Shown one piece after another: positions 1,228 through 13,929 of a stretch of 46,251 nucleotides of DNA. The notes under the pieces are model-generated. The model was given only the letters and a program-made list of their open reading frames with translations, had not been told where the DNA came from and ran no database searches. The stretch spans positions 1 to 46,251 of the forward strand of contig JAIPGM010000012.1 in the NCBI GenBank assembly GCA_021735655.1, written 5' to 3'. The stretch is from Candidatus Omnitrophota bacterium. Its GTDB lineage: Bacteria; Omnitrophota; Gorgyraeia; Duberdicusellales; 4484-171. A program made the translations under genes and the position numbers. Each line of letters starts with the position of its first letter. The stretch's first letter is position 1.

Positions 1228-1815
1228 ATGTCAGTAAAAATTATATCTTTTGGGAAAAGACATTTTGTATCGTTGTTCGTATCTATTTCTCTTTTTTTGC
1301 ATTTTATTTTTGTTTTTTGGTGTTCATTTTATATAGAAACCGCCCCTAGTCCCTCAGTTTATGCCTGGACGAATATTATTGGAAAGAAGGATTTATTTTT
1401 TGAGAAAAAGTTAATTCAATTTCCAGAAAAAGCCTTCTCTTCGGTGGATCCATTGCGTAGAGAGTATTTTTCAGCTTCTTTTTTAAACGAAGATTATTTC
1501 CAACGCAAACATAAAGAACAGATAGATATTTTGCCTTACGTTAGCAAAGTTTCCTTCGATGATGCTATTTTGAGTCAAAAGCGAAAGCAGTATGTCTACC
1601 TTTGGGAGAGGAACGCGGTTTTGTCTTCTTGGGAAGAGGAGGTCATTCCTTATCGAGTTTATGTTTCCAATCATGGACGGGTGATTTTTCTATATCCGGA
1701 AAAATTATCAGTTAATTCTTATGAAAATTTGAATTTTCAGGACTATATTCGGGAATCTACTCAATTTCTAGGGGATAAATTTTTCTGGACAAAATTAGAG
1801 GCAGTAGTAAAATAA
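1228..1815 (+). CDS. hypothetical membrane-anchored protein (candidate TonB/TolA-like partner of ExbBD, but lacking a Pro-rich linker or TonB-C signature)
   Basis: 195 aa with an N-terminal hydrophobic helix (VSLFVSISLFLHFIFVFWCSF) and a soluble C-terminal region with no recognisable motif. Position is immediately downstream of exbB-exbD. Confidence 0.5.
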   Translation: MSVKIISFGKRHFVSLFVSISLFLHFIFVFWCSFYIETAPSPSVYAWTNIIGKKDLFFEKKLIQFPEKAFSSVDPLRREYFSASFLNEDYFQRKHKEQIDILPYVSKVSFDDAILSQKRKQYVYLWERNAVLSSWEEEVIPYRVYVSNHGRVIFLYPEKLSVNSYENLNFQDYIRESTQFLGDKFFWTKLEAVVK

Positions 1816-2258: not shown

Positions 2259-2335
2259 TTTCTAATATTTTAAGTAGTTATCCCGCCATTTTTTACCCAT
2301 TTATTTTTTAAAAGTAGTTTTGGTGCCAAATCGGT

Positions 2336-2408
2336 GGGGCCGTAGTTCAGTTGGGAGAACGCCTCGTTCGCAACGAGGAGGTCGGCGGTTCGACTCCGCT
2401 CGGCTCCA
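2336..2408 (+). tRNA. tRNA-Ala (anticodon CGC)
   Basis: 73-nt cloverleaf: acceptor GGGGCCG/CGGCTCC with G3:U70 Ala identity pair, anticodon loop TTCGCAA, T-loop TTCGACT, discriminator A. CCA is not encoded. Confidence 0.9.
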
Positions 2409-2435
2409 TGGAAATAAACAATAAGTTAGGGAAAT

Positions 2436-5127: not shown

Positions 5128-5919
5128 ATGACAGTTCCAATAACAGCAGTAATAATTAGTAAAAATGAGGCTGAGCGAATAAAGGATTGTCTTGAGTCAG
5201 TGGCTAGTTGGGCTCAGGAAATAATTTTAGTTGACGATGAAAGTAGTGACCAAACTCGTCAGATCGCCGCAAACTATACCGATAAGATACTGGTTCGTAA
5301 AATGGAGGTTGAAGGCAAACATCGTAATTGGGCTTATGCTCAGAGCTCAAATGATTGGGTTTTAAGTTTAGATGCTGACGAGCGTTTAACCCCCGAGCTT
5401 AAGGCTGAGATTGAGGTAGTTTTTGATCAGCTTACCGATGAGGTTGCTTTTACTATTCCTAGAAAGAACTTTCTTGGTGATTATTGGTTGCGTTGGGCCG
5501 GTCAGTACCCTTCAGCCCAGCTAAAACTTTTTAAAAAGAGTAAGTTTAAATGGGAGGAGGTTGAAGTCCATCCAAGAGCTTTTTTAAAAGGTAAAACTAC
5601 GCCGCTTAAAGAACCACTTCTGCACTATACTTATCGTGATTTTGGGGATTTTTTAAAAAAATTAAATAACCAAACTACACTTGAGGCAAAAAAATGGTTT
5701 GATGTTTATAAAGCTGACCCTAAGAAAGCAAATTACAAAATGAACTTAACCCATGCTTTGTGGCGTTACAACGATCGTTTTTTTCGTGCTTATTTGAGAA
5801 AAAAGGGTTGGCGAGATGGTTTTAGGGGATTTATGGTTTCTTTTTTTGCAGCCTTGTATCAGATAATTTCTTATGCTAAATATTGGGAAATAAAGAATCG
5901 GTTTAATCAAAATAAATGA
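5128..5919 (+). CDS. family 2 glycosyltransferase (LPS-core WaaE/KdtX-like)
   Basis: 263 aa. N-terminal GT-A fold motifs (VIISKNEAERI…VDDESSDQT…SLDADE). Confidence 0.75.
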   Translation: MTVPITAVIISKNEAERIKDCLESVASWAQEIILVDDESSDQTRQIAANYTDKILVRKMEVEGKHRNWAYAQSSNDWVLSLDADERLTPELKAEIEVVFDQLTDEVAFTIPRKNFLGDYWLRWAGQYPSAQLKLFKKSKFKWEEVEVHPRAFLKGKTTPLKEPLLHYTYRDFGDFLKKLNNQTTLEAKKWFDVYKADPKKANYKMNLTHALWRYNDRFFRAYLRKKGWRDGFRGFMVSFFAALYQIISYAKYWEIKNRFNQNK

Positions 5920-6467
5920 AACCAATAGTCTTTATTGATCGCGATGGCGTAATCAATGAATACCCCGGTCATGGAAATTACGTAACCAGCAAGCAGGAGT
6001 TTAGATTCATTCCCGGAAGCCTTGAAGCGATTCGTAAGTTTAGCGAAGAAGGATTTAAGCTTTACGTGGTTTCTAATCAAGCCGGAGTTGCTAAAGGTTT
6101 GTATGCTCAGAAGGACTTAGATGAAATAAATGCAAAAATACTGCAGTCAGTCGAAAAAATTGGCGGGAATATTTCTGGTATTTATTATTGTACCCATCTT
6201 CCTGGCGATGATTGTGATTGCCGGAAACCTAAAACCGGTCTTTTAAAGAAAGCCCAGGAAGATAGCTTTATGATTTGCGATAAGTCAATATTTATTGGCG
6301 ATTCATTTATGGACATGGAAGCTGCCCGCAATTTTGGAGCAAAATCAGTTTTGGTCCTTTCCGGAAGAGAGAAAATAGCTAATCGTGATAATTGGAAATT
6401 TGAACCGGATTATGTATTTGATAATCTTCTTTTGGCCGCACATTATTTAATTTCTCATTATGCCTAA
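5916..6467 (+). CDS. gmhB: HAD-IIIA phosphatase, D,D-heptose 1,7-bisphosphate phosphatase (GmhB)-like
   Basis: HAD motif I DRDGV at the N-terminus. Cys cluster C-x-H…CDC, typical of GmhB zinc site. Length 183 aa. Confidence 0.7.
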   Translation: MKPIVFIDRDGVINEYPGHGNYVTSKQEFRFIPGSLEAIRKFSEEGFKLYVVSNQAGVAKGLYAQKDLDEINAKILQSVEKIGGNISGIYYCTHLPGDDCDCRKPKTGLLKKAQEDSFMICDKSIFIGDSFMDMEAARNFGAKSVLVLSGREKIANRDNWKFEPDYVFDNLLLAAHYLISHYA

Positions 6468-7527
6468 AACTATAGTTATTTATGCCAGCTTTGGACATGG
6501 CCATAAAATGGCTGCTCAAGCTTTAGGCAAGGTGCTTGATGCTCCGGTTTGCGATTTATTAAGTTTCTGCTCACCTTTTATTGGCAAGATTTATTCCGGA
6601 TTGTATAGTTTTATAAGCCATCATTTCCGCCACCTTTGGCAGGTTACCTTTTTTTTAACTAAAACAAAGTTTATTTCTTATCTGGTTAATTTGCTGCATA
6701 GGGCTTTATTTGCATCTTTATTTAAGTATTTGCATCGTGAGGCACCGGATGTGATCATTACTACGCATTTTTTCCCGGCCGATTTGGCTGCCTATATCAA
6801 GCATGAAATAGAGTTTAAATTGATATCGGTAATTACTGATAGCAGAGTCCATCCGTTATGGGTTAATTCTGATATAGATTATTATTTTGCTACTTTTGAG
6901 ATAACCAAGAGTGACCTAATTTCTTTAGGTGTTGAGGCAGATAAAATTGTTAGCGGTTTTGTGCCACTACGTGAAGGCTTCAGAAGTAATCTTTCGCACC
7001 AGGAGCTTTATAAACAGTTCAATTTAGATCCGCTACCGACGGTTCTTTTTGTTTCGTCTTCAATGGGGGTATTTCCGTTTCTTAAGAAATCGCTAGATAT
7101 TTTATTAAAAGACTTTAATGTTTTCGTAATTTATGGCAGTAATCAAAAACTGCGTCGTTATCTCGAGGGAGCTAACTCTGAACGGTTACGTTTTTTTCCT
7201 TTTTATGAGAAGATATGGGAACTTATATTTTTGAGTTCAGTTATTATCACCAAGCCCGGAGGCATGACTATTTTTGAAAGTGTTCATTGCAGAAAACCCT
7301 TTATTTTTACTCACTATATACCTGGTCAAGAAAAAGAAAATATGGATGTGCTGATTGAAGCTGGGGTCGCTAAGTTTGTTAAGAACCGTCGAGATTTCTT
7401 GAGTGTTGTTTGTTCACTGAGCAAAAAACATGAACAATTTCAAAATAGTTATCCTTTTGAGCTTAAAGATGTCCAGCCAGTATTAAGCGATTTAATTCAA
7501 AATTGCCTCTCTAAAGACAAAATTTAA
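6460..7527 (+). CDS. GT28 family glycosyltransferase (MGDG-synthase / MurG-like)
   Basis: N-terminal GHGH motif (YASFGHGHKMAAQAL) typical of MGDG synthase-like GT-B enzymes. C-terminal GT28 domain. Confidence 0.65.
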   Translation: MPKTIVIYASFGHGHKMAAQALGKVLDAPVCDLLSFCSPFIGKIYSGLYSFISHHFRHLWQVTFFLTKTKFISYLVNLLHRALFASLFKYLHREAPDVIITTHFFPADLAAYIKHEIEFKLISVITDSRVHPLWVNSDIDYYFATFEITKSDLISLGVEADKIVSGFVPLREGFRSNLSHQELYKQFNLDPLPTVLFVSSSMGVFPFLKKSLDILLKDFNVFVIYGSNQKLRRYLEGANSERLRFFPFYEKIWELIFLSSVIITKPGGMTIFESVHCRKPFIFTHYIPGQEKENMDVLIEAGVAKFVKNRRDFLSVVCSLSKKHEQFQNSYPFELKDVQPVLSDLIQNCLSKDKI

Positions 7528-7530
7528 GTA

Positions 7531-9321
7531 ATGAAAAGCATAGCTAAGGTAGCTCTACCGATCTTCTTAGATAAGGAGTTTGACTATTCCTTTTCGTCTA
7601 AGCTTGACCTTAAAAGAGGTGTGCGGGTTTTAGTTGATTTTAGGGGAAGAAAGCGTATAGGCTTAGTTGTCGGGTTAGCTGATGAATCGAGGGTGAAAAA
7701 GTTAAAAGACGTAGTTGACCTTTTTGATCGACGCCCCTTATTGAGAGAAGACCACTTTACTTTTGCTGAAAAATTAAGTCAATTTTATCCTTATCCTTTT
7801 GAGGAATTTTTGTTCATGATGATCCCGGCTTATTTAAAAAAACCACAAAGAACTGATTTAGATTATTTTCAATCAGCAGCGACAAAAGATGACTCGGTTT
7901 CAAAAGTATTTATTAAGTCGGCGAAAATCACAGATCGTTATCAACGTTGGCGAGGTTTGGTGCGGAAGGCATTGGGGCAAGGTTCAGTTATGATTTGTTT
8001 TCCGCAAATGACCTATCTTCTCGAAGCAGAGAAATTAATTGCCAAGGATTTTCCTGGTCAGATTAAAGTTTTACATAGCAAAAAAAGTGAAAAAGACTTT
8101 TTTAATACTTGGCAAAAAAGTCGGCGTAAAAGTTTGATTTTAGGAACTCGGATGGCTCTCTTTTATTATCCGATTGATTTAAAACTTATTGTTATTGAGG
8201 AAGAGGATAGTCGACATTATTTTCAGGAAGAGAAACCTTTTTATGACCTTCGCGAGGCGGCAGATTTACTTTCAGAGAGTTTAGGGGTTAATTTAGTTTT
8301 AGCTGGAAGTTACCCGTCTCTGGCAACTTATAAGTCTATTGTTGATGGGAAAACGAAATTGGGTGAGCTAGAAGAGAACCCTAAAGATATATCTGTGGTA
8401 GATTTGGGTGGTTTTTCTAGAAAGAAAGTGGTTGGTCCGGTTTTGATTGAATTACTTTCTAAGGTAACTAAAGCCAATAAAAGGTCGGTTGTGCTTTGGA
8501 ATAAGAAGGGTTTTGGCCAAATTGTAGCTTGCTCAACTTGTGGATACATATATAAATGTATTCATTGTTCAGGTTTTTTACAGTTTTCTTTATCTACTCA
8601 AGAGGGAAGGTGTCCTTATTGTCATCGTCAAGTAAGTTTACCTAGTCTATGTAGTCATTGCCAGAAAGGATATTTGAAATCTTCAGGTCTAGGGATTGAA
8701 GGTATAGCTTCCTTGCTTAAGCGTGTATTTCCCGAGGTAAAGATAGATAATTGGCAAAAGCACTATCGCGACTCTAAGATTACCCTTTCTACCTCTGAAA
8801 TTTTAAGTTCTCTCTATAGCTCGGAGGTTTTTGACTCAGGGTTTATGCTGGATACGGATTCTTTGTTGAGTCGGCCGGACTATCGGGCAACTTTTGATAC
8901 TTTCCTTTATATTAAGAAGCTCAGTAACTTTTTCTGTAAGTCGATGCATGTCTTTACGCGTAATCGACAATACTATTTATTTGATTATCTTAATTATGAC
9001 TGGAGGCAGTTTTACGATAAAGAGCTAAACTTGCGTAAGAAAATGGGGCTGCCGCCTTTTAAGCTTTTAGCAAAAATTACCCTGCGGGATAAAAATGAGA
9101 ACTTACTTTTAAAACAGGCTGAAGGCTTGTATAATAGATTTCAGAAAAGCTTTCAGGAAGTCTATGGTCCTTCTAAGGCTCAGCCTTTCAAATTACGTGA
9201 TAAATTTCGCTATCAGATTATAGTGCGTACAGAGAGGAATCTGAGGAACCGTTGCTTAGTTAAGGAGATAATAGCTCTGCTACCTAGAACTAAGGTGCAG
9301 TTGGCGGCTGAACTGTATTAG
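7531..9321 (+). CDS. priA: primosomal protein N' (PriA) homolog with degenerate helicase/ATPase motifs
   Basis: Retained: PriA N-terminal 3'-DNA-binding region; four CxxC pairs of the Cys-rich zinc region (CSTCGY…CIHCSG…CPYCHR…CSHCQ); conserved C-terminal LPPF. Degenerate: Walker A position reads KSAKITDRYQRW; DEEH reads EEED; SAT reads SYPS; no QxxGRxGR. Confidence 0.7.
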   Translation: MKSIAKVALPIFLDKEFDYSFSSKLDLKRGVRVLVDFRGRKRIGLVVGLADESRVKKLKDVVDLFDRRPLLREDHFTFAEKLSQFYPYPFEEFLFMMIPAYLKKPQRTDLDYFQSAATKDDSVSKVFIKSAKITDRYQRWRGLVRKALGQGSVMICFPQMTYLLEAEKLIAKDFPGQIKVLHSKKSEKDFFNTWQKSRRKSLILGTRMALFYYPIDLKLIVIEEEDSRHYFQEEKPFYDLREAADLLSESLGVNLVLAGSYPSLATYKSIVDGKTKLGELEENPKDISVVDLGGFSRKKVVGPVLIELLSKVTKANKRSVVLWNKKGFGQIVACSTCGYIYKCIHCSGFLQFSLSTQEGRCPYCHRQVSLPSLCSHCQKGYLKSSGLGIEGIASLLKRVFPEVKIDNWQKHYRDSKITLSTSEILSSLYSSEVFDSGFMLDTDSLLSRPDYRATFDTFLYIKKLSNFFCKSMHVFTRNRQYYLFDYLNYDWRQFYDKELNLRKKMGLPPFKLLAKITLRDKNENLLLKQAEGLYNRFQKSFQEVYGPSKAQPFKLRDKFRYQIIVRTERNLRNRCLVKEIIALLPRTKVQLAAELY

Positions 9322-9346: not shown

Positions 9347-10276
9347 ATGAATTTAATCTATTTTGGGAGTTCGGAATTTTCAAGAGTGGTGTTAGAAGGT
9401 CTTTGCCGGATGGGTTTTGCGCCTTCTTTGGTTGTCACTAAGCCGGACAAGCCTAAGGGTAGAGGGTTACAGCTTACGGCTACTGAGGTAAGCGTTTTAG
9501 CGGAAAGCAAAAAAATTTCGGTAGTTAAACCGAATTCACTAAAAGAGAAAAGTTTTATTGAAAAGCTCAGAGCCGAATCCGTTGATTTTTTTGTTGTGGT
9601 TGATTATGGCAAAATCATTCCTTTAGAAGTACTTTCTTTGCCGAATGAGTTTACTTTAGGATTGCATCCCTCGTTGCTTCCGCGATATCGCGGCCCAGCA
9701 CCGATTGAGTATGCCTTGCTTAACGGTGACCAAACAACTGGGTTAACTATTTTTAAAGTAAACGAAAAGGTTGATTCCGGAGACATTATTTTGCAGAAGC
9801 AAGTCGTAATCGACTCTAATGATGATTACCATTCGCTTAGTCGCAAACTTTCAAACGAAGGTTTTCAATTTATAGTCGAAGGGTTATCTAAAATAAAAGA
9901 TGGTAGCTATAAGTTAGTTAAACAGGCTGAAGCCAGAGCTTCTTTTACTTTTAAATTTAAAAAGATCGATGGTCAGATTAATTGGCAGAAGCGAGCGGTT
10001 GATATAAATAATCTTGTTCGGGCCATCAGCGGCTGGCCTTCGGCTTATACTTACCACAATGGTTTATTGCTTAAAGTCATAAAGTCTGACGTTATTAAGG
10101 TAACGGATGAAATTGGTCCGCCGGGTGGGATTGTAAAAATAGAACCGAAAGGAATTTATGTAACTACTGGTGAAGATATTCTAAGAATTTCTCGCATCCA
10201 GCCTCAAGGTAAAAAAGTTATGGATGCTTGGTCCTTTGTTTGTGGTCATCACCTTAAGGTGGGAATGAGTTTCTAA
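9347..10276 (+). CDS. fmt: methionyl-tRNA formyltransferase
   Basis: 309 aa with the Fmt N-terminal formyltransferase core (…HPSLLPRYRGPAPI…) and a C-terminal tRNA-binding domain. Confidence 0.9.
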   Translation: MNLIYFGSSEFSRVVLEGLCRMGFAPSLVVTKPDKPKGRGLQLTATEVSVLAESKKISVVKPNSLKEKSFIEKLRAESVDFFVVVDYGKIIPLEVLSLPNEFTLGLHPSLLPRYRGPAPIEYALLNGDQTTGLTIFKVNEKVDSGDIILQKQVVIDSNDDYHSLSRKLSNEGFQFIVEGLSKIKDGSYKLVKQAEARASFTFKFKKIDGQINWQKRAVDINNLVRAISGWPSAYTYHNGLLLKVIKSDVIKVTDEIGPPGGIVKIEPKGIYVTTGEDILRISRIQPQGKKVMDAWSFVCGHHLKVGMSF

Positions 10277-13516: not shown

Positions 13517-13589
13517 GCCCACGTAGCTCAGTCGGTAGAGCACTTCGTTGGTAACGAAGAGGTCACCGGTTCGATTCTGGTCGTGGGCT
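13517..13589 (+). tRNA. tRNA-Thr (anticodon GGT)
   Basis: 73-nt cloverleaf: acceptor GCCCACG/CGTGGGC, anticodon loop TTGGTAA, T-loop TTCGATT. Confidence 0.9.
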
Positions 13590-13829
13590 TAGTTAAACAA
13601 TAAGATGATTCAAAAACCACAAAAGTGGGGCGGGAGGTTTTTAGACTTTTCGCTCCTTTATTATTATAACTATTTATGAGAGAGCTAATTGCGTTATCAT
13701 GTACTGTGTGCAAACGAAAGACTTACTACTTGAGTAAGAACAAACGAAAGCACCCTGAAAAAATGACTCTTAAAAAATATTGTCGTTTCGATCGTAAACA
13801 TACAGAACATAAAGAGGCTAAGCCATGAT

Positions 13830-13903
13830 AGGCGAGTAGCTCAATTGGCTAGAGCACCGGTCTCCAAAACCGGGGGTTGCAGGTTCAACTCCTGCCTCGC
13901 CTG
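13830..13903 (+). tRNA. tRNA-Trp (anticodon CCA)
   Basis: 74-nt cloverleaf: acceptor AGGCGAG/CTCGCCT, anticodon loop CTCCAAA, T-loop TTCAACT. Sits directly upstream of secE, as in many bacteria. Confidence 0.9.
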
Positions 13904-13929
13904 TGTTTAAGATTGTTTGAAGTTAGAAG

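What the first reader, a model, noticed from the sequence alone, without database searches (positions are those of the whole stretch)
7531..9321. PriA homolog with all helicase/ATPase catalytic motifs degenerate but DNA-binding and zinc modules intact
The 596-aa protein aligns by eye along the whole of PriA. Retained modules are the N-terminal 3'-DNA-binding domain, the winged-helix region, the four-CxxC cysteine-rich region and the C-terminal LPPF segment. The catalytic motifs are not retained. Where Walker A (GxTGSGKTEVY) should be, it reads KSAKITDRYQRW. Walker B DEEH reads EEED. Motif III SAT reads SYP. No QxxGRxGR arginine-finger motif is present. It is also about 130 aa shorter than canonical PriA. 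This predicts a replication-restart scaffold that recognises forks and loads partners but cannot hydrolyse ATP or unwind. That would be a different restart mechanism from the E. coli paradigm.
Basis: partly seen in the sequence, partly recalled or inferred. Interest (0 to 1): 0.6.

Follow-up and report, generated by a model that had tools for sequence, protein, structure and literature searches.

The report
Helicase-dead PriA conserved in Omnitrophota
This gene is the bacterium's own copy of the replication-restart protein PriA; it has lost every ATP-using helicase motif yet stays strongly conserved across a large branch of the phylum Omnitrophota, which makes it a second natural 'pseudohelicase' PriA lineage after the one known in Deinococcus.

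Summary
The ORF (7531..9321, +, 596 aa) is real and is a full-length PriA homolog. Its 3'-end-binding domain, two RecA-like lobes, four-CxxC zinc region and C-terminal domain are all present. MAFFT, HHalign and phmmer-to-PDB alignments agree that Walker A, the DExH histidine and motifs III, V and VI are gone.

The protein is not a one-off. All 79 full-length close relatives lack the motifs and carry new invariant residues instead, such as R136-Y137 in place of GK-T. About 100 more distant 50%-identity clusters, also labelled Omnitrophota, are motif-less too. Other Omnitrophota keep an intact short PriA.

All three forms sit at the same locus (HAD phosphatase, MGDG-synthase-like glycosyltransferase, priA, fmt), so they are positional orthologs. 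An intact paralog is therefore unlikely, but no whole genome could be scanned.

The best reading is an ATPase-dead scaffold that recognises forks and recruits the replicative helicase. Precedents exist: the D. radiodurans PriA pseudohelicase and E. coli priA300. It is a new, apparently undescribed member of a known kind, not a new mechanism. Interest is moderate.

The parts
7531..9321 (+). priA ortholog encoding a 596-aa motif-less PriA ('pseudohelicase'); the stop codon is 9319-9321
   Evidence: ORF. Pfam PriA_3primeBD plus PriA_C only. TIGR00595 scores 207.4 bits, below the 230.35 cutoff. PDB PriA matches at E 2e-43. AF2 model has pLDDT 89.1 and pTM 0.88. Best Foldseek hit is E. coli PriA 8fak_H, E 9e-46, TMq 0.89.
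7531..7830 (+). 3'-DNA-binding domain (residues 1-100). The pocket residues D18, Y19 and K59 are invariant in the clade.
   Evidence: Pfam PF17764 at residues 6-99. D18, Y19 and K59 are 79/79 in the clade. They align to E. coli D17, Y18 and K61, the 3'-end pocket residues named in PMC5778457.
7831..7899 (+). Short variable linker (residues 101-123) in the place where E. coli PriA has its winged-helix domain; no WH domain is present.
   Evidence: Alignment gap against K. pneumoniae PriA residues 124-248. Gap in the MAFFT alignment. pLDDT of about 60 and no helix-turn-helix elements. Lowest conservation of any segment, 0.37.
7900..8385 (+). RecA-like lobe 1 (residues 124-285), catalytically dead but the most constrained region of the protein.
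   Evidence: 33 positions are >=95% conserved in 79 relatives. The fold is confirmed.
7918..7941 (+). Walker A remnant S130-A-K-I-T-D-R136-Y137, opposite G-x-T-G-S-G-K-T.
   Evidence: F133 is 77/79, and R136 and Y137 are 79/79, in the clade. Canonical sequences have G, K and T in 22/22.
8197..8208 (+). Walker B / DExH remnant E223-E224-E225-D226 (clade consensus E-E-E-N).
   Evidence: E223 77/79, E224 70/79, E225 78/79, N226 72/79. Canonical D-E-E-H is 22/22 at D and H. Confirmed by HHalign.
8215..8244 (+). Loop after Walker B (residues 229-238; Y230-F-Q-E-E-K-P236), the counterpart of the E. coli aromatic-rich loop that wedges into the fork junction.
   Evidence: Y230, E234, K235 and P236 are 79/79; F231, Q232 and E233 are >=73/79. 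The role of the E. coli loop is described in PMC5778457 and PMC10175261.
8305..8316 (+). Motif III remnant G259-S260-Y261-P262, opposite S-A-T-P.
   Evidence: The clade consensus is x-D-Y-P; canonical S-A-T-P is 22/22.
8386..8520 (+). RecA-like lobe 2, first part (residues 286-330).
8521..8670 (+). Cysteine-rich region (residues 331-380) with four CxxC pairs: C334/337, C343/346, C361/364, C374/377.
   Evidence: All eight cysteines are invariant in 102 aligned PriAs, both dead and intact. The weak Pfam zinc-finger hits fall here.
8671..8985 (+). RecA-like lobe 2, second part (residues 381-485). It is shortened by about 16 columns before motif V. The motif V remnant is S420-T-S-E-I-L and the motif VI remnant is K463-L-S-N-F-F, with no arginine.
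8986..9318 (+). C-terminal domain (residues 486-596), including L507-P-P-F510.
   Evidence: Pfam PF18074 at residues 509-587. P508 and P509 are (near-)invariant in all PriAs.
5916..7527 (+). Upstream syntenic anchors: a HAD-IIIA (GmhB-like) phosphatase at 5916..6467 and an MGDG-synthase-like glycosyltransferase at 6460..7527.
   Evidence: The same pair sits upstream of priA in the tier-1, tier-2 and intact-PriA Omnitrophota loci.
9347..10276 (+). Downstream syntenic anchor: fmt (methionyl-tRNA formyltransferase).
   Evidence: TIGR00460 E 8e-76, above cutoff. fmt follows priA in every locus examined.

Best explanation
This is the organism's orthologous priA gene, and its product has become a pseudohelicase. 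It keeps the complete PriA architecture except the winged-helix domain. It has lost the P-loop, the DExH histidine, motif III, motif V and the motif VI arginines, so it should neither bind nor hydrolyse ATP nor unwind DNA.

I infer that it still does the ATP-independent part of PriA's job:
1. It recognises an abandoned fork or D-loop, using the 3'-end pocket of the 3'BD, the lobe-1 loop at the junction, and the surface formed by the CRR, lobe 2 and the CTD that holds lagging-strand ssDNA.
2. [quoted passage not shown]

Because it cannot clear a duplex lagging arm, it would act only on forks whose lagging-strand template is already single-stranded, unless another helicase does the clearing.

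Shown here: homology, fold, motif loss, clade-wide conservation and positional orthology. Inferred: no ATPase, fork binding, helicase recruitment and the role in restart.
For: Homology and fold:
- Pfam finds the 3'BD and PriA_C.
- PDB PriA matches at E 2e-43 over residues 3-106 and 140-584.
- The AF2 model has pLDDT 89.1.
- Foldseek's top nine hits are all PriA, the best being 8fak_H at TMq 0.89.

Motif loss is placed consistently by four methods:
- MAFFT with 23 canonical PriAs.
- MAFFT with 133 representatives.
- phmmer against the PDB.
- HHalign against a profile of 102 intact Omnitrophota PriAs (probability 100, E 1.3e-84, 594 columns).

Census:
- Walker A is present in 0/79 close relatives, and 75/79 have none of the four motifs.
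- 101/115 of the more distant 'tier 2' proteins have none.
- 113/118 intact-type proteins have all four.

Constraint:
- All five folded domains score 0.59-0.67 in mean conservation; only the short 101-123 linker is lower, at 0.37.
- 90 positions are >=95% conserved, 33 of them in dead lobe 1.
- The replacements are themselves invariant: R136-Y137 is 79/79.
- dN against the 61%-identical ortholog is 0.285, within the range of neighbouring housekeeping genes (fmt 0.253, ligA 0.217, rsmE 0.478).
- The DNA-contact elements are kept: D18/Y19/K59, motif Ib, the junction loop and the eight cysteines.

Orthology:
- The same HAD, MGDG_synth, priA, fmt locus holds tier-1, tier-2 and intact PriA in different Omnitrophota.
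- Only one PriA-like gene is found in each sequence held here.

Precedent:
- E. coli K230R abolishes ATPase activity, yet restart through PriA-PriB works.
- D. radiodurans PriA has K-to-R in Walker A, no ATPase or unwinding activity, and binds forks and DnaB.
Against: - No biochemical data exist for this protein or for any Omnitrophota PriA.
- No complete genome could be searched for a second, intact priA, or for dnaB, a loader, ssb, rep/uvrD or recG.
- The winged-helix domain contacts parental duplex in E. coli and is missing here, so fork specificity may differ. The intact Omnitrophota PriAs lack it too.
- Retention of E224 and E225 and an invariant arginine at the Walker lysine position leaves a small formal possibility of some nucleotide interaction.
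- The conserved surfaces could serve a function other than restart.
Confidence: 0.75

Rival explanations
1. It is a diverged paralog. The genome also carries an intact PriA elsewhere that performs restart, and this copy has been freed to decay or take on a side function.
For: Intact short PriAs (about 665 aa, all motifs present) do exist in genomes labelled Candidatus Omnitrophota. No whole genome with the motif-less form could be scanned.
Against: - The motif-less genes sit at exactly the locus (HAD, MGDG_synth, priA, fmt) where other Omnitrophota carry the intact gene. That is the pattern of orthologous replacement, not duplication.
- No longest-contig length is shared between the lists of motif-less and intact proteins, including the 1.52, 1.82 and 1.23 Mb contigs. 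This is a weak test, because only the top 120 rows are shown.
- Omnitrophota genomes are reduced, at 0.86-3.2 Mb (PMC10066038).
- K04066 and TIGR00595 each have a count of 1 in the four genomes visible in a truncated supplementary table.
Confidence: 0.06
2. It is still an ATPase or helicase that uses non-canonical residues, with R136 acting in place of the Walker lysine and E223-E225 acting as Walker B.
For: The acidic Walker B residues are retained, and an invariant basic residue sits at the lysine position.
Against: - All P-loop glycines and the Ser/Thr are gone.
- Motif III, the motif V GTQ and both motif VI arginines are absent.
- Pfam DEAD and Helicase_C give no hit.
- K230R alone kills E. 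coli PriA ATPase activity, and the K-to-R D. radiodurans PriA has no measurable ATPase activity.
Confidence: 0.04
3. It is a PriA-derived DNA-structure-binding protein that has been repurposed for something other than replisome reloading, for example protecting or marking 3' ends or gaps, or acting in recombination or repair.
For: - This lineage evolves faster than other PriAs. Its mean distance to intact Omnitrophota PriA is 1.99, against 1.37 for tier 2.
- New invariant residues appear that have no counterpart in canonical PriA.
- The Q-motif helix and part of lobe 2 are deleted.
Against: It is the only PriA-like gene at the conserved priA locus. The elements used for fork recognition in E. 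coli are exactly the ones retained. Restart is PriA's only known role, and natural and engineered ATPase-dead PriAs still perform it or retain its partner contacts.
Confidence: 0.12
4. It is a decaying pseudogene or an assembly artefact.
For: NCBI's pipeline names it and its close relatives 'hypothetical protein'.
Against: - The ORF is intact and full length in 79 clusters at 41-61% identity, from many independent assemblies. These include two closed genomes.
- The AF2 model is of high confidence.
- dN is comparable to that of neighbouring essential genes.
- The 'hypothetical' label follows simply from TIGR00595 scoring 207 against a cutoff of 230.
Confidence: 0.01

Closest known systems
Deinococcus radiodurans PriA pseudohelicase (Lopper et al. 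2015, PMC4504706) and the Deinococcus-Thermus PriAs in general
   Same: It is a natural PriA ortholog with non-consensus Walker A and B, including arginine at the Walker A lysine position. It is retained as the lineage's PriA in a phylum without obvious PriB or DnaT. The experimentally shown properties of the D. radiodurans protein are the ones inferred here: no ATPase, no unwinding, normal ssDNA and fork binding, and binding to DnaB.
   Different: - The origin is independent. The Omnitrophota motif-less clade groups with Omnitrophota PriAs and shares their locus, and the phylum belongs to the PVC group.
- Decay is more complete here. Every P-loop glycine is lost, as are motifs III, V and VI, and lobe 2 and the Q-motif region are shortened. 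The 2015 paper describes poor matches in motifs I and II.
- No biochemistry exists for the Omnitrophota proteins.
E. coli PriA K230R (priA300) and the K230A/D variants
   Same: These are ATPase-, helicase- and translocase-dead PriAs that still assemble primosomes in vitro and behave almost like wild type in vivo (PMC5778457). They are proof of principle that PriA's restart function can be ATP-independent.
   Different: They are engineered point mutants in an otherwise intact helicase that works with PriB and DnaT, and they are defective in the PriA-PriC pathway. The Omnitrophota protein is a natural, long-evolved form, and its partners are unknown.
Intact short PriA of other Omnitrophota (for example P0500, 668 aa, GCA_028715645.1; P0502)
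   Same: Same genomic locus, same domain order, no winged-helix domain, the same eight cysteines and the same CTD. HHalign gives probability 100 over 594 columns.
   Different: The intact proteins keep GITGSGKT, DEEH, GSATP, GTQM and GRAGR (113/118 have all four censused motifs). They are only 25-26% identical to the window protein. They also carry the Q-motif helix and about 16 more residues in lobe 2.
E. coli PriA winged-helix deletion protein (PDB 6DCR)
   Same: It is a WH-less PriA and the second-best structural match to the model (E 1.9e-40, TMq 0.78).
   Different: It is an engineered deletion of an otherwise active helicase.

Membership tests
PriA (primosomal protein N') family | N-terminal 3'-DNA-binding domain with the 3'-end pocket residues | tested here: met
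   PF17764 at residues 6-99, E 3.7e-20. D18, Y19 and K59 are invariant.
PriA (primosomal protein N') family | Two RecA-like lobes, with the cysteine-rich region inserted in lobe 2 and an S10-like C-terminal domain (overall fold) | tested here: met
   AF2 pLDDT 89.1 and pTM 0.88. The top nine Foldseek PDB hits are all PriA, with TMq up to 0.89.
PriA (primosomal protein N') family | CxxC-Xn-CxxC-Xn-CxxC-Xn-CxxC zinc-binding region | tested here: met
   C334/337/343/346/361/364/374/377 are invariant across 102 PriAs.
PriA (primosomal protein N') family | SF2 helicase motifs I, II (DExH), III, V and VI | tested here: not met
   No Pfam DEAD or Helicase_C hit.
PriA (primosomal protein N') family | Score above the curated cutoff of the equivalog model TIGR00595 | tested here: not met
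   207.4 bits against a cutoff of 230.35. It is homologous, but the curated model does not name it as the equivalent enzyme.
PriA (primosomal protein N') family | Winged-helix domain between the 3'BD and the helicase core (present in E. coli and K. pneumoniae PriA; not universal) | tested here: not met
   It is also absent from the intact Omnitrophota PriAs.
PriA (primosomal protein N') family | Orthology: occupies the lineage's priA locus | tested here: met
   The HAD, MGDG_synth, priA, fmt locus is shared with intact-PriA Omnitrophota.
PriA pseudohelicase (as defined for D. radiodurans PriA) | PriA homolog with non-consensus Walker A and B, including loss of the catalytic lysine | tested here: met
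   K becomes R136 (79/79). The P-loop glycines are lost, and DEEH becomes EEE(N/D).
PriA pseudohelicase (as defined for D. radiodurans PriA) | No ATP hydrolysis and no duplex unwinding in vitro | not testable with these tools
   Requires purified protein. The sequence strongly predicts this outcome.
PriA pseudohelicase (as defined for D. radiodurans PriA) | Retained ssDNA and fork binding, and interaction with the replicative helicase | not testable with these tools
   Only indirect evidence: the DNA-contact elements are conserved.
PriA pseudohelicase (as defined for D. radiodurans PriA) | Common descent with the Deinococcus-Thermus pseudohelicase clade | tested here: not met
   Its nearest relatives and its shared locus are Omnitrophota PriAs. 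Loss was therefore independent. No Deinococcus sequence was aligned directly.

The most novel reading that the evidence does not exclude
A large, old branch of the Omnitrophota has dispensed with PriA's motor altogether. The graded series found at one locus (intact, then 'tier 2' of about 615 aa, then 'tier 1' of about 596 aa) would record a stepwise conversion of a helicase into a pure fork-recognition and helicase-loading adaptor.

If true, restart in these ultra-small, reduced-genome bacteria is a minimal PriA-only pathway that is independent of PriA's ATPase. It may involve a new partner or a new contact surface built from the newly invariant residues: R136-Y137, Y212-Y213-P214 and Y230-FQEEKP. 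The intact sister lineages would then give a natural experiment on why nearly all other bacteria keep PriA's helicase activity.
Probability: 0.35. Interest if true: 0.55.

Novelty: new member of a known kind. Interest (0 to 1): 0.4.

Why it matters
[quoted passage not shown] It also lists as open whether PriA acts alone in bacteria that have no PriB, DnaT or PriC.

This finding adds a second, independent and much larger natural loss. About 100 clusters at 50% identity are affected, all labelled Omnitrophota. Intact orthologs sit at the same locus in sister lineages.

That gives a comparative handle on which parts of PriA are indispensable: the 3'-end pocket, the junction loop, motif Ib, the zinc region and the CTD all survive, while every ATP-site residue is expendable.

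There is also a practical consequence. NCBI's pipeline labels the most derived form 'hypothetical protein', so gene-content surveys would score these genomes as lacking priA.

I found no paper mentioning PriA in Omnitrophota.

Tried and rejected
1. Search for a second intact priA in the same genomes.
It returned 80 canonical PriAs from unrelated phyla and none from Omnitrophota, so it was uninformative.
   - I compared 'longest_contig' values across the three protein lists. No value was shared, but only the top 113-120 rows are visible, so this test is weak.
2. The idea that the dead form is locked in the fork-bound 'CRR-UP' pore conformation. The model matches 8fak_H better than apo PriA. A control model of an intact Omnitrophota PriA does the same (8fak_H TMq 0.87). 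I rejected the idea as not specific to the dead form.
3. Taxonomy of the first canonical hits through cluster names: almost no names were returned.
4. Looking up the window's own protein in the contig index: not on record.
5. The high-scoring 'designer pentatricopeptide' PDB rows have zero significant stretches. They are compositional artefacts and I ignored them.
6. The weak Pfam hits zf-Di19, zf-CHY and PRORP are just the zinc ribbons of the CRR, or noise.
7. dN/dS: dS is saturated (>1.2) against the nearest available ortholog, so I used only dN relative to neighbouring genes.
8. SSB-tail pocket residues: I found no residue list in the readable papers, so conservation of that site was not assessed.
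9. The NJ tree has a long-branch caveat. Motif-less monophyly has 79/100 bootstrap support, which is suggestive only.
Full report
**Observation.**
The ORF at 7531..9321 (+) is real. It is ATG-started, 596 aa long, and begins 3 nt after the upstream gene. Pfam finds only the two PriA-specific end domains: PriA_3primeBD at residues 6-99 (E 3.7e-20) and PriA_C at 509-587 (E 5.7e-10). There is no DEAD or Helicase_C hit even at E<=1. NCBIfam's equivalog model TIGR00595 scores 207.4 bits, below its 230.35 cutoff. phmmer against PDB sequences hits K. pneumoniae and E. coli PriA at E 2e-43 in two stretches: query 3-106 with Kp 18-123, and query 140-584 with Kp 249-727. Kp residues ~124-248 hold the winged-helix domain and the start of lobe 1. 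They have only about 33 counterparts in the query, so the winged-helix domain is absent.

**Motif positions.**
Four independent alignments agree:
- MAFFT with 79 close relatives and 23 canonical PriAs.
- MAFFT with 133 library representatives.
- The phmmer alignment to the PDB.
- HHalign of a 79-sequence profile of the clade against a 102-sequence profile of intact Omnitrophota PriAs (probability 100, E 1.3e-84, 594 aligned columns).

The motif-by-motif result is:

| Motif | Canonical | Window protein | Clade notes |
|---|---|---|---|
| I (Walker A) | G-x-T-G-S-G-K-T | S130-A-K-I-T-D-R136-Y137 | consensus A-D-S-F-x-x-R-Y; R136 and Y137 79/79 |
| Ia | PEIxLT | P158-Q-M-T-Y-L | |
| Ib | GTRSAxF | G205-T-R-M-A-L-F211 | retained |
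| II (Walker B) | D-E-E-H | E223-E-E-D226 | consensus E-E-E-N |
| loop after motif II | | Y230-F-Q-E-E-K-P236 | essentially invariant |
| III | S-A-T-P | G259-S-Y-P262 | |
| V | GTQM.AKGHD | (S)T-S-E-I-L-S-S-L-Y | |
| VI | Q..GR.GR | K463-L-S-N-F-F | no arginine |

Compared with the intact Omnitrophota PriAs, the protein also lacks the Q-motif helix before strand 1 (about 27 columns) and about 16 columns of lobe 2. The eight CRR cysteines are invariant across all 102 dead and intact PriAs, and LPPF lies at 507-510. Two refinements apply: the Walker B glutamates survive, and the 'SYP' assignment is one column off.

**Fold.**
An AlphaFold2 model built on the 102-sequence alignment is confident (mean pLDDT 89.1, pTM 0.88). 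The only dips are at the 101-123 linker and in loops of the CRR. The top nine Foldseek PDB hits are all PriA. The best is E. coli PriA in the PriA/PriB/fork complex (8fak_H, E 9e-46, TMq 0.89). Next are the E. coli WH-deletion protein 6dcr and the K. pneumoniae structures.

**It is a clade, not an accident.**
The word-indexed search returned 90 clusters at 41-61% identity. Nearly all are 590-620 aa, and Pfam finds only the 3'BD and PriA_C in them. Every cluster that carries a name is 'Candidatus Omnitrophota/Omnitrophica'. I call this group tier 1. There is then a gap to canonical PriAs at E 1e-35.

The exhaustive phmmer search of 1.84 billion representatives showed more. After tier 1 come roughly 100 further 50%-identity clusters of 600-660 aa, at 26-32% identity, each aligned end to end. 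These also lack the motifs. I call this group tier 2. A profile search with 40 tier-2 sequences listed 120 best hits. Those that carry names are again Omnitrophota, including Candidatus Aceula meridiana.

Tier 2 is less derived than tier 1. It keeps canonical GTRSAVFAP and 'DEE(D/N/E)..YKQ', but it has no conserved Walker A, SAT or GRxGR.

The motif census is:

| Group | Result |
|---|---|
| Tier 1 | Walker A in 0/79; none of the four motifs in 75/79 |
| Tier 2 | none of the four motifs in 101/115 |
| Closest intact PriAs | all four motifs in 113/118 |

The closest intact PriAs are short (median 668 aa), WH-less proteins. Many are themselves labelled Omnitrophota (P0432, P0439, P0443, P0463, P0467, P0478, P0493, P0500).

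A neighbour-joining tree of 136 sequences over 609 columns gives these results:
- Tier 1 is monophyletic (100/100 bootstraps).
- Tier 1 and tier 2 group together (69 of 70 sequences, 79/100).
- Partly decayed proteins (P0213, P0246, P0224) branch next.

Long-branch attraction cannot be excluded.

**Ortholog or paralog?**
The gene neighbourhoods are:

| PriA form | Locus | Gene order |
|---|---|---|
| Tier 1 | window | GT2, HAD/GmhB-like phosphatase, MGDG-synthase-like GT, priA*, fmt, acylphosphatase, metallophosphoesterase, ligA, secE-nusG-... |
| Tier 1, 61% identical | L088 | same order; collinear from exbB to rpoB |
| Tier 1, closed genome | CP070797.1 | priA*, fmt, acylphosphatase, metallophosphoesterase, ligA, rpmG, secE (upstream genes differ) |
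| Tier 1, closed genome | CP070807.1 | GT28-like, priA*, fmt, acylphosphatase, metallophosphoesterase |
| Tier 2 | L004 (P0322) | GT2, HAD, MGDG_synth, priA*, fmt, GalT, GalT, GAPDH |
| Intact | L005 (P0500) | GT2, HAD, MGDG_synth, UDG, priA, def, fmt ... GalT, GalT, GAPDH |
| Intact | L006 (P0502) | HAD, MGDG_synth, UDG, PilZ, priA, fmt ... GAPDH |

The three forms are therefore positional orthologs at one ancestral locus. That is what replacement-by-decay predicts and what duplication does not. tblastn finds a single PriA-like gene in each sequence held.

I could not scan a complete genome. I put the paralog rival at about 6%.

**Constraint.**
Within tier 1, the five folded domains are about equally conserved (0.59-0.67), while the short 101-123 linker scores only 0.37. 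Ninety positions are >=95% conserved, and 33 of them lie in the catalytically dead lobe 1. The invariant positions include:
- The 3'-end pocket residues D18, Y19 and K59. These align to E. coli D17, Y18 and K61, as named in PMC5778457.
- Motif Ib.
- The loop after Walker B.
- The CRR cysteines.
- R502/P508/P509 of the CTD.
- Lineage-specific novelties: F133, R136, Y137 and Y212-Y213-P214.

Against the L088 ortholog, dN is 0.285. That lies within the range of the neighbouring genes (GT2 0.133, ligA 0.217, fmt 0.253, rsmE 0.478). dS is saturated. This is a maintained protein, not a decaying one.

**How it most likely works (inference).**
In E. coli, several elements together give fork specificity (PMC10175261):
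- The 3'BD pocket captures the nascent leading-strand 3' end.
- A lobe-1 loop wedges into the junction.
- The CRR, lobe 2 and the CTD form a pore around 8-9 nt of lagging-strand ssDNA.
- The WH domain adds a contact on parental duplex 10-20 bp away.

ATP hydrolysis is needed only to clear a duplex lagging arm. On a duplex arm the CRR does not move and PriB is not recruited (PMC13594977 abstract). priA300 (K230R) is ATPase-dead, yet it is nearly wild type in vivo and active in restart assays. It fails only in the PriA-PriC pathway (PMC5778457). D. radiodurans PriA carries K-to-R, has no ATPase or unwinding activity, binds ssDNA and forks with near-normal affinity, and binds DnaB (PMC4504706).

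The Omnitrophota protein keeps every fork-recognition element except the WH domain and loses every ATP-site element. The economical model is therefore a passive, structure-specific fork or D-loop sensor. It would work on forks whose lagging-strand template is already single-stranded, and it would nucleate reloading of DnaB, directly or through SSB and the lineage's loader. Any duplex clearing would fall to another helicase, or such forks would not be restarted by this route.

The model's resemblance to the fork-bound conformation of E. coli PriA is not specific to the dead form. A control model of intact P0500 (pLDDT 88.2) behaves the same way.

**Comparison with what is known, and novelty.**
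- In function it matches the D. radiodurans pseudohelicase and the engineered priA300.
- By descent it is a separate loss within a PVC-group phylum.
- Decay is more complete here (motifs I, III, V and VI, plus deletions) than the motif I/II departures described for Deinococcus-Thermus.
- As a family member it is a PriA homolog and positional ortholog. It fails the helicase-motif criterion and the curated TIGR00595 cutoff, which is why PGAP calls tier 1 'hypothetical protein'.
- Full-text searches found no paper linking Omnitrophota with PriA. The two main Omnitrophota genomics papers do not mention PriA, primosome or helicase.
- The field's review still lists Deinococcus as the sole exception.

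I therefore rate it a new, undescribed member of a known kind (a natural PriA pseudohelicase), of moderate interest. Its value lies in the scale of the clade and in the intact, tier-2 and tier-1 series at a single locus. It does not represent a new mechanism.

Noticed in passing
L005 7326-7997; L006 6891-7610 (compare window 6460-7531): In Omnitrophota loci with an intact priA, a UDG-family (uracil-DNA glycosylase) gene lies directly upstream of priA. It is absent at that position in every motif-less locus examined (window, L001, L004, L087, L088). def lies between priA and fmt only in L005.
   Followed up: partly
L002 10001-11899 (protein P0099): This is another short (632 aa), WH-less PriA with partly decayed motifs ('SGEREIRS' for Walker A, 'DEEE', 'GTILPT', 'GTQLILTSRE', no GRxGR). 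It lies on a Logan contig of unknown taxon, in an unrelated gene context (fatty-acid synthesis, ETF, glycosyltransferases). It may be an independent loss of PriA helicase function.
   Followed up: partly
proteins P0216, P0243, P0260, P0270, P0248, P0252: These library representatives of 660-700 aa show partial motif decay. Examples are GVGGSGKT combined with DDEQ and no SAT or GRxGR, GKPGSGKM, GVRGSGKS, and DEEF. They may be intermediate states between intact and dead PriA. Their taxonomy was not determined.
   Followed up: no
window 7531-9321 and its tier-1 relatives: NCBI's annotation pipeline names tier-1 proteins 'hypothetical protein', because TIGR00595 scores 207 bits against a cutoff of 230. 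Tier-2 proteins are named 'primosomal protein N''. Gene-content surveys would therefore score tier-1 genomes as lacking priA.
   Followed up: yes
L001 1-6136 and 6726-7447: Upstream of the priA locus in closed genome CP070797.1 lies the 3' part of a giant ORF. Its product is 6905 aa, with Radical_SAM, B12-binding and Amidohydro_2 hits. It is followed by a HEPN / nucleotidyltransferase pair. Giant ORFs are a known Omnitrophota trait (PMC10066038).
   Followed up: no
window 1-46251: Every plausible gene in the 46-kb window is on the + strand. GC skew is positive (+0.13 to +0.27) in every 2-kb bin. The window is one co-oriented housekeeping block: exbBD, rsmE, mtaB, priA*, fmt, ligA, secE-nusG, rplKAJL, rpoBC, the S10/spc/alpha ribosomal operons, secY, adk and map.
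   Followed up: partly
window 1228-1815: This 195-aa ORF has no Pfam hit, but it is conserved in position and length in the related locus L088 (1090-1680, 196 aa), downstream of exbB-exbD.
   Followed up: no
window 2335-2409, 13517-13589, 13829-13904: Three tRNA genes are present: Ala-CGC, Thr-GGT and Trp-CCA. The last two lie between ligA and secE. No other Rfam family reached its gathering score in the window.
   Followed up: yes
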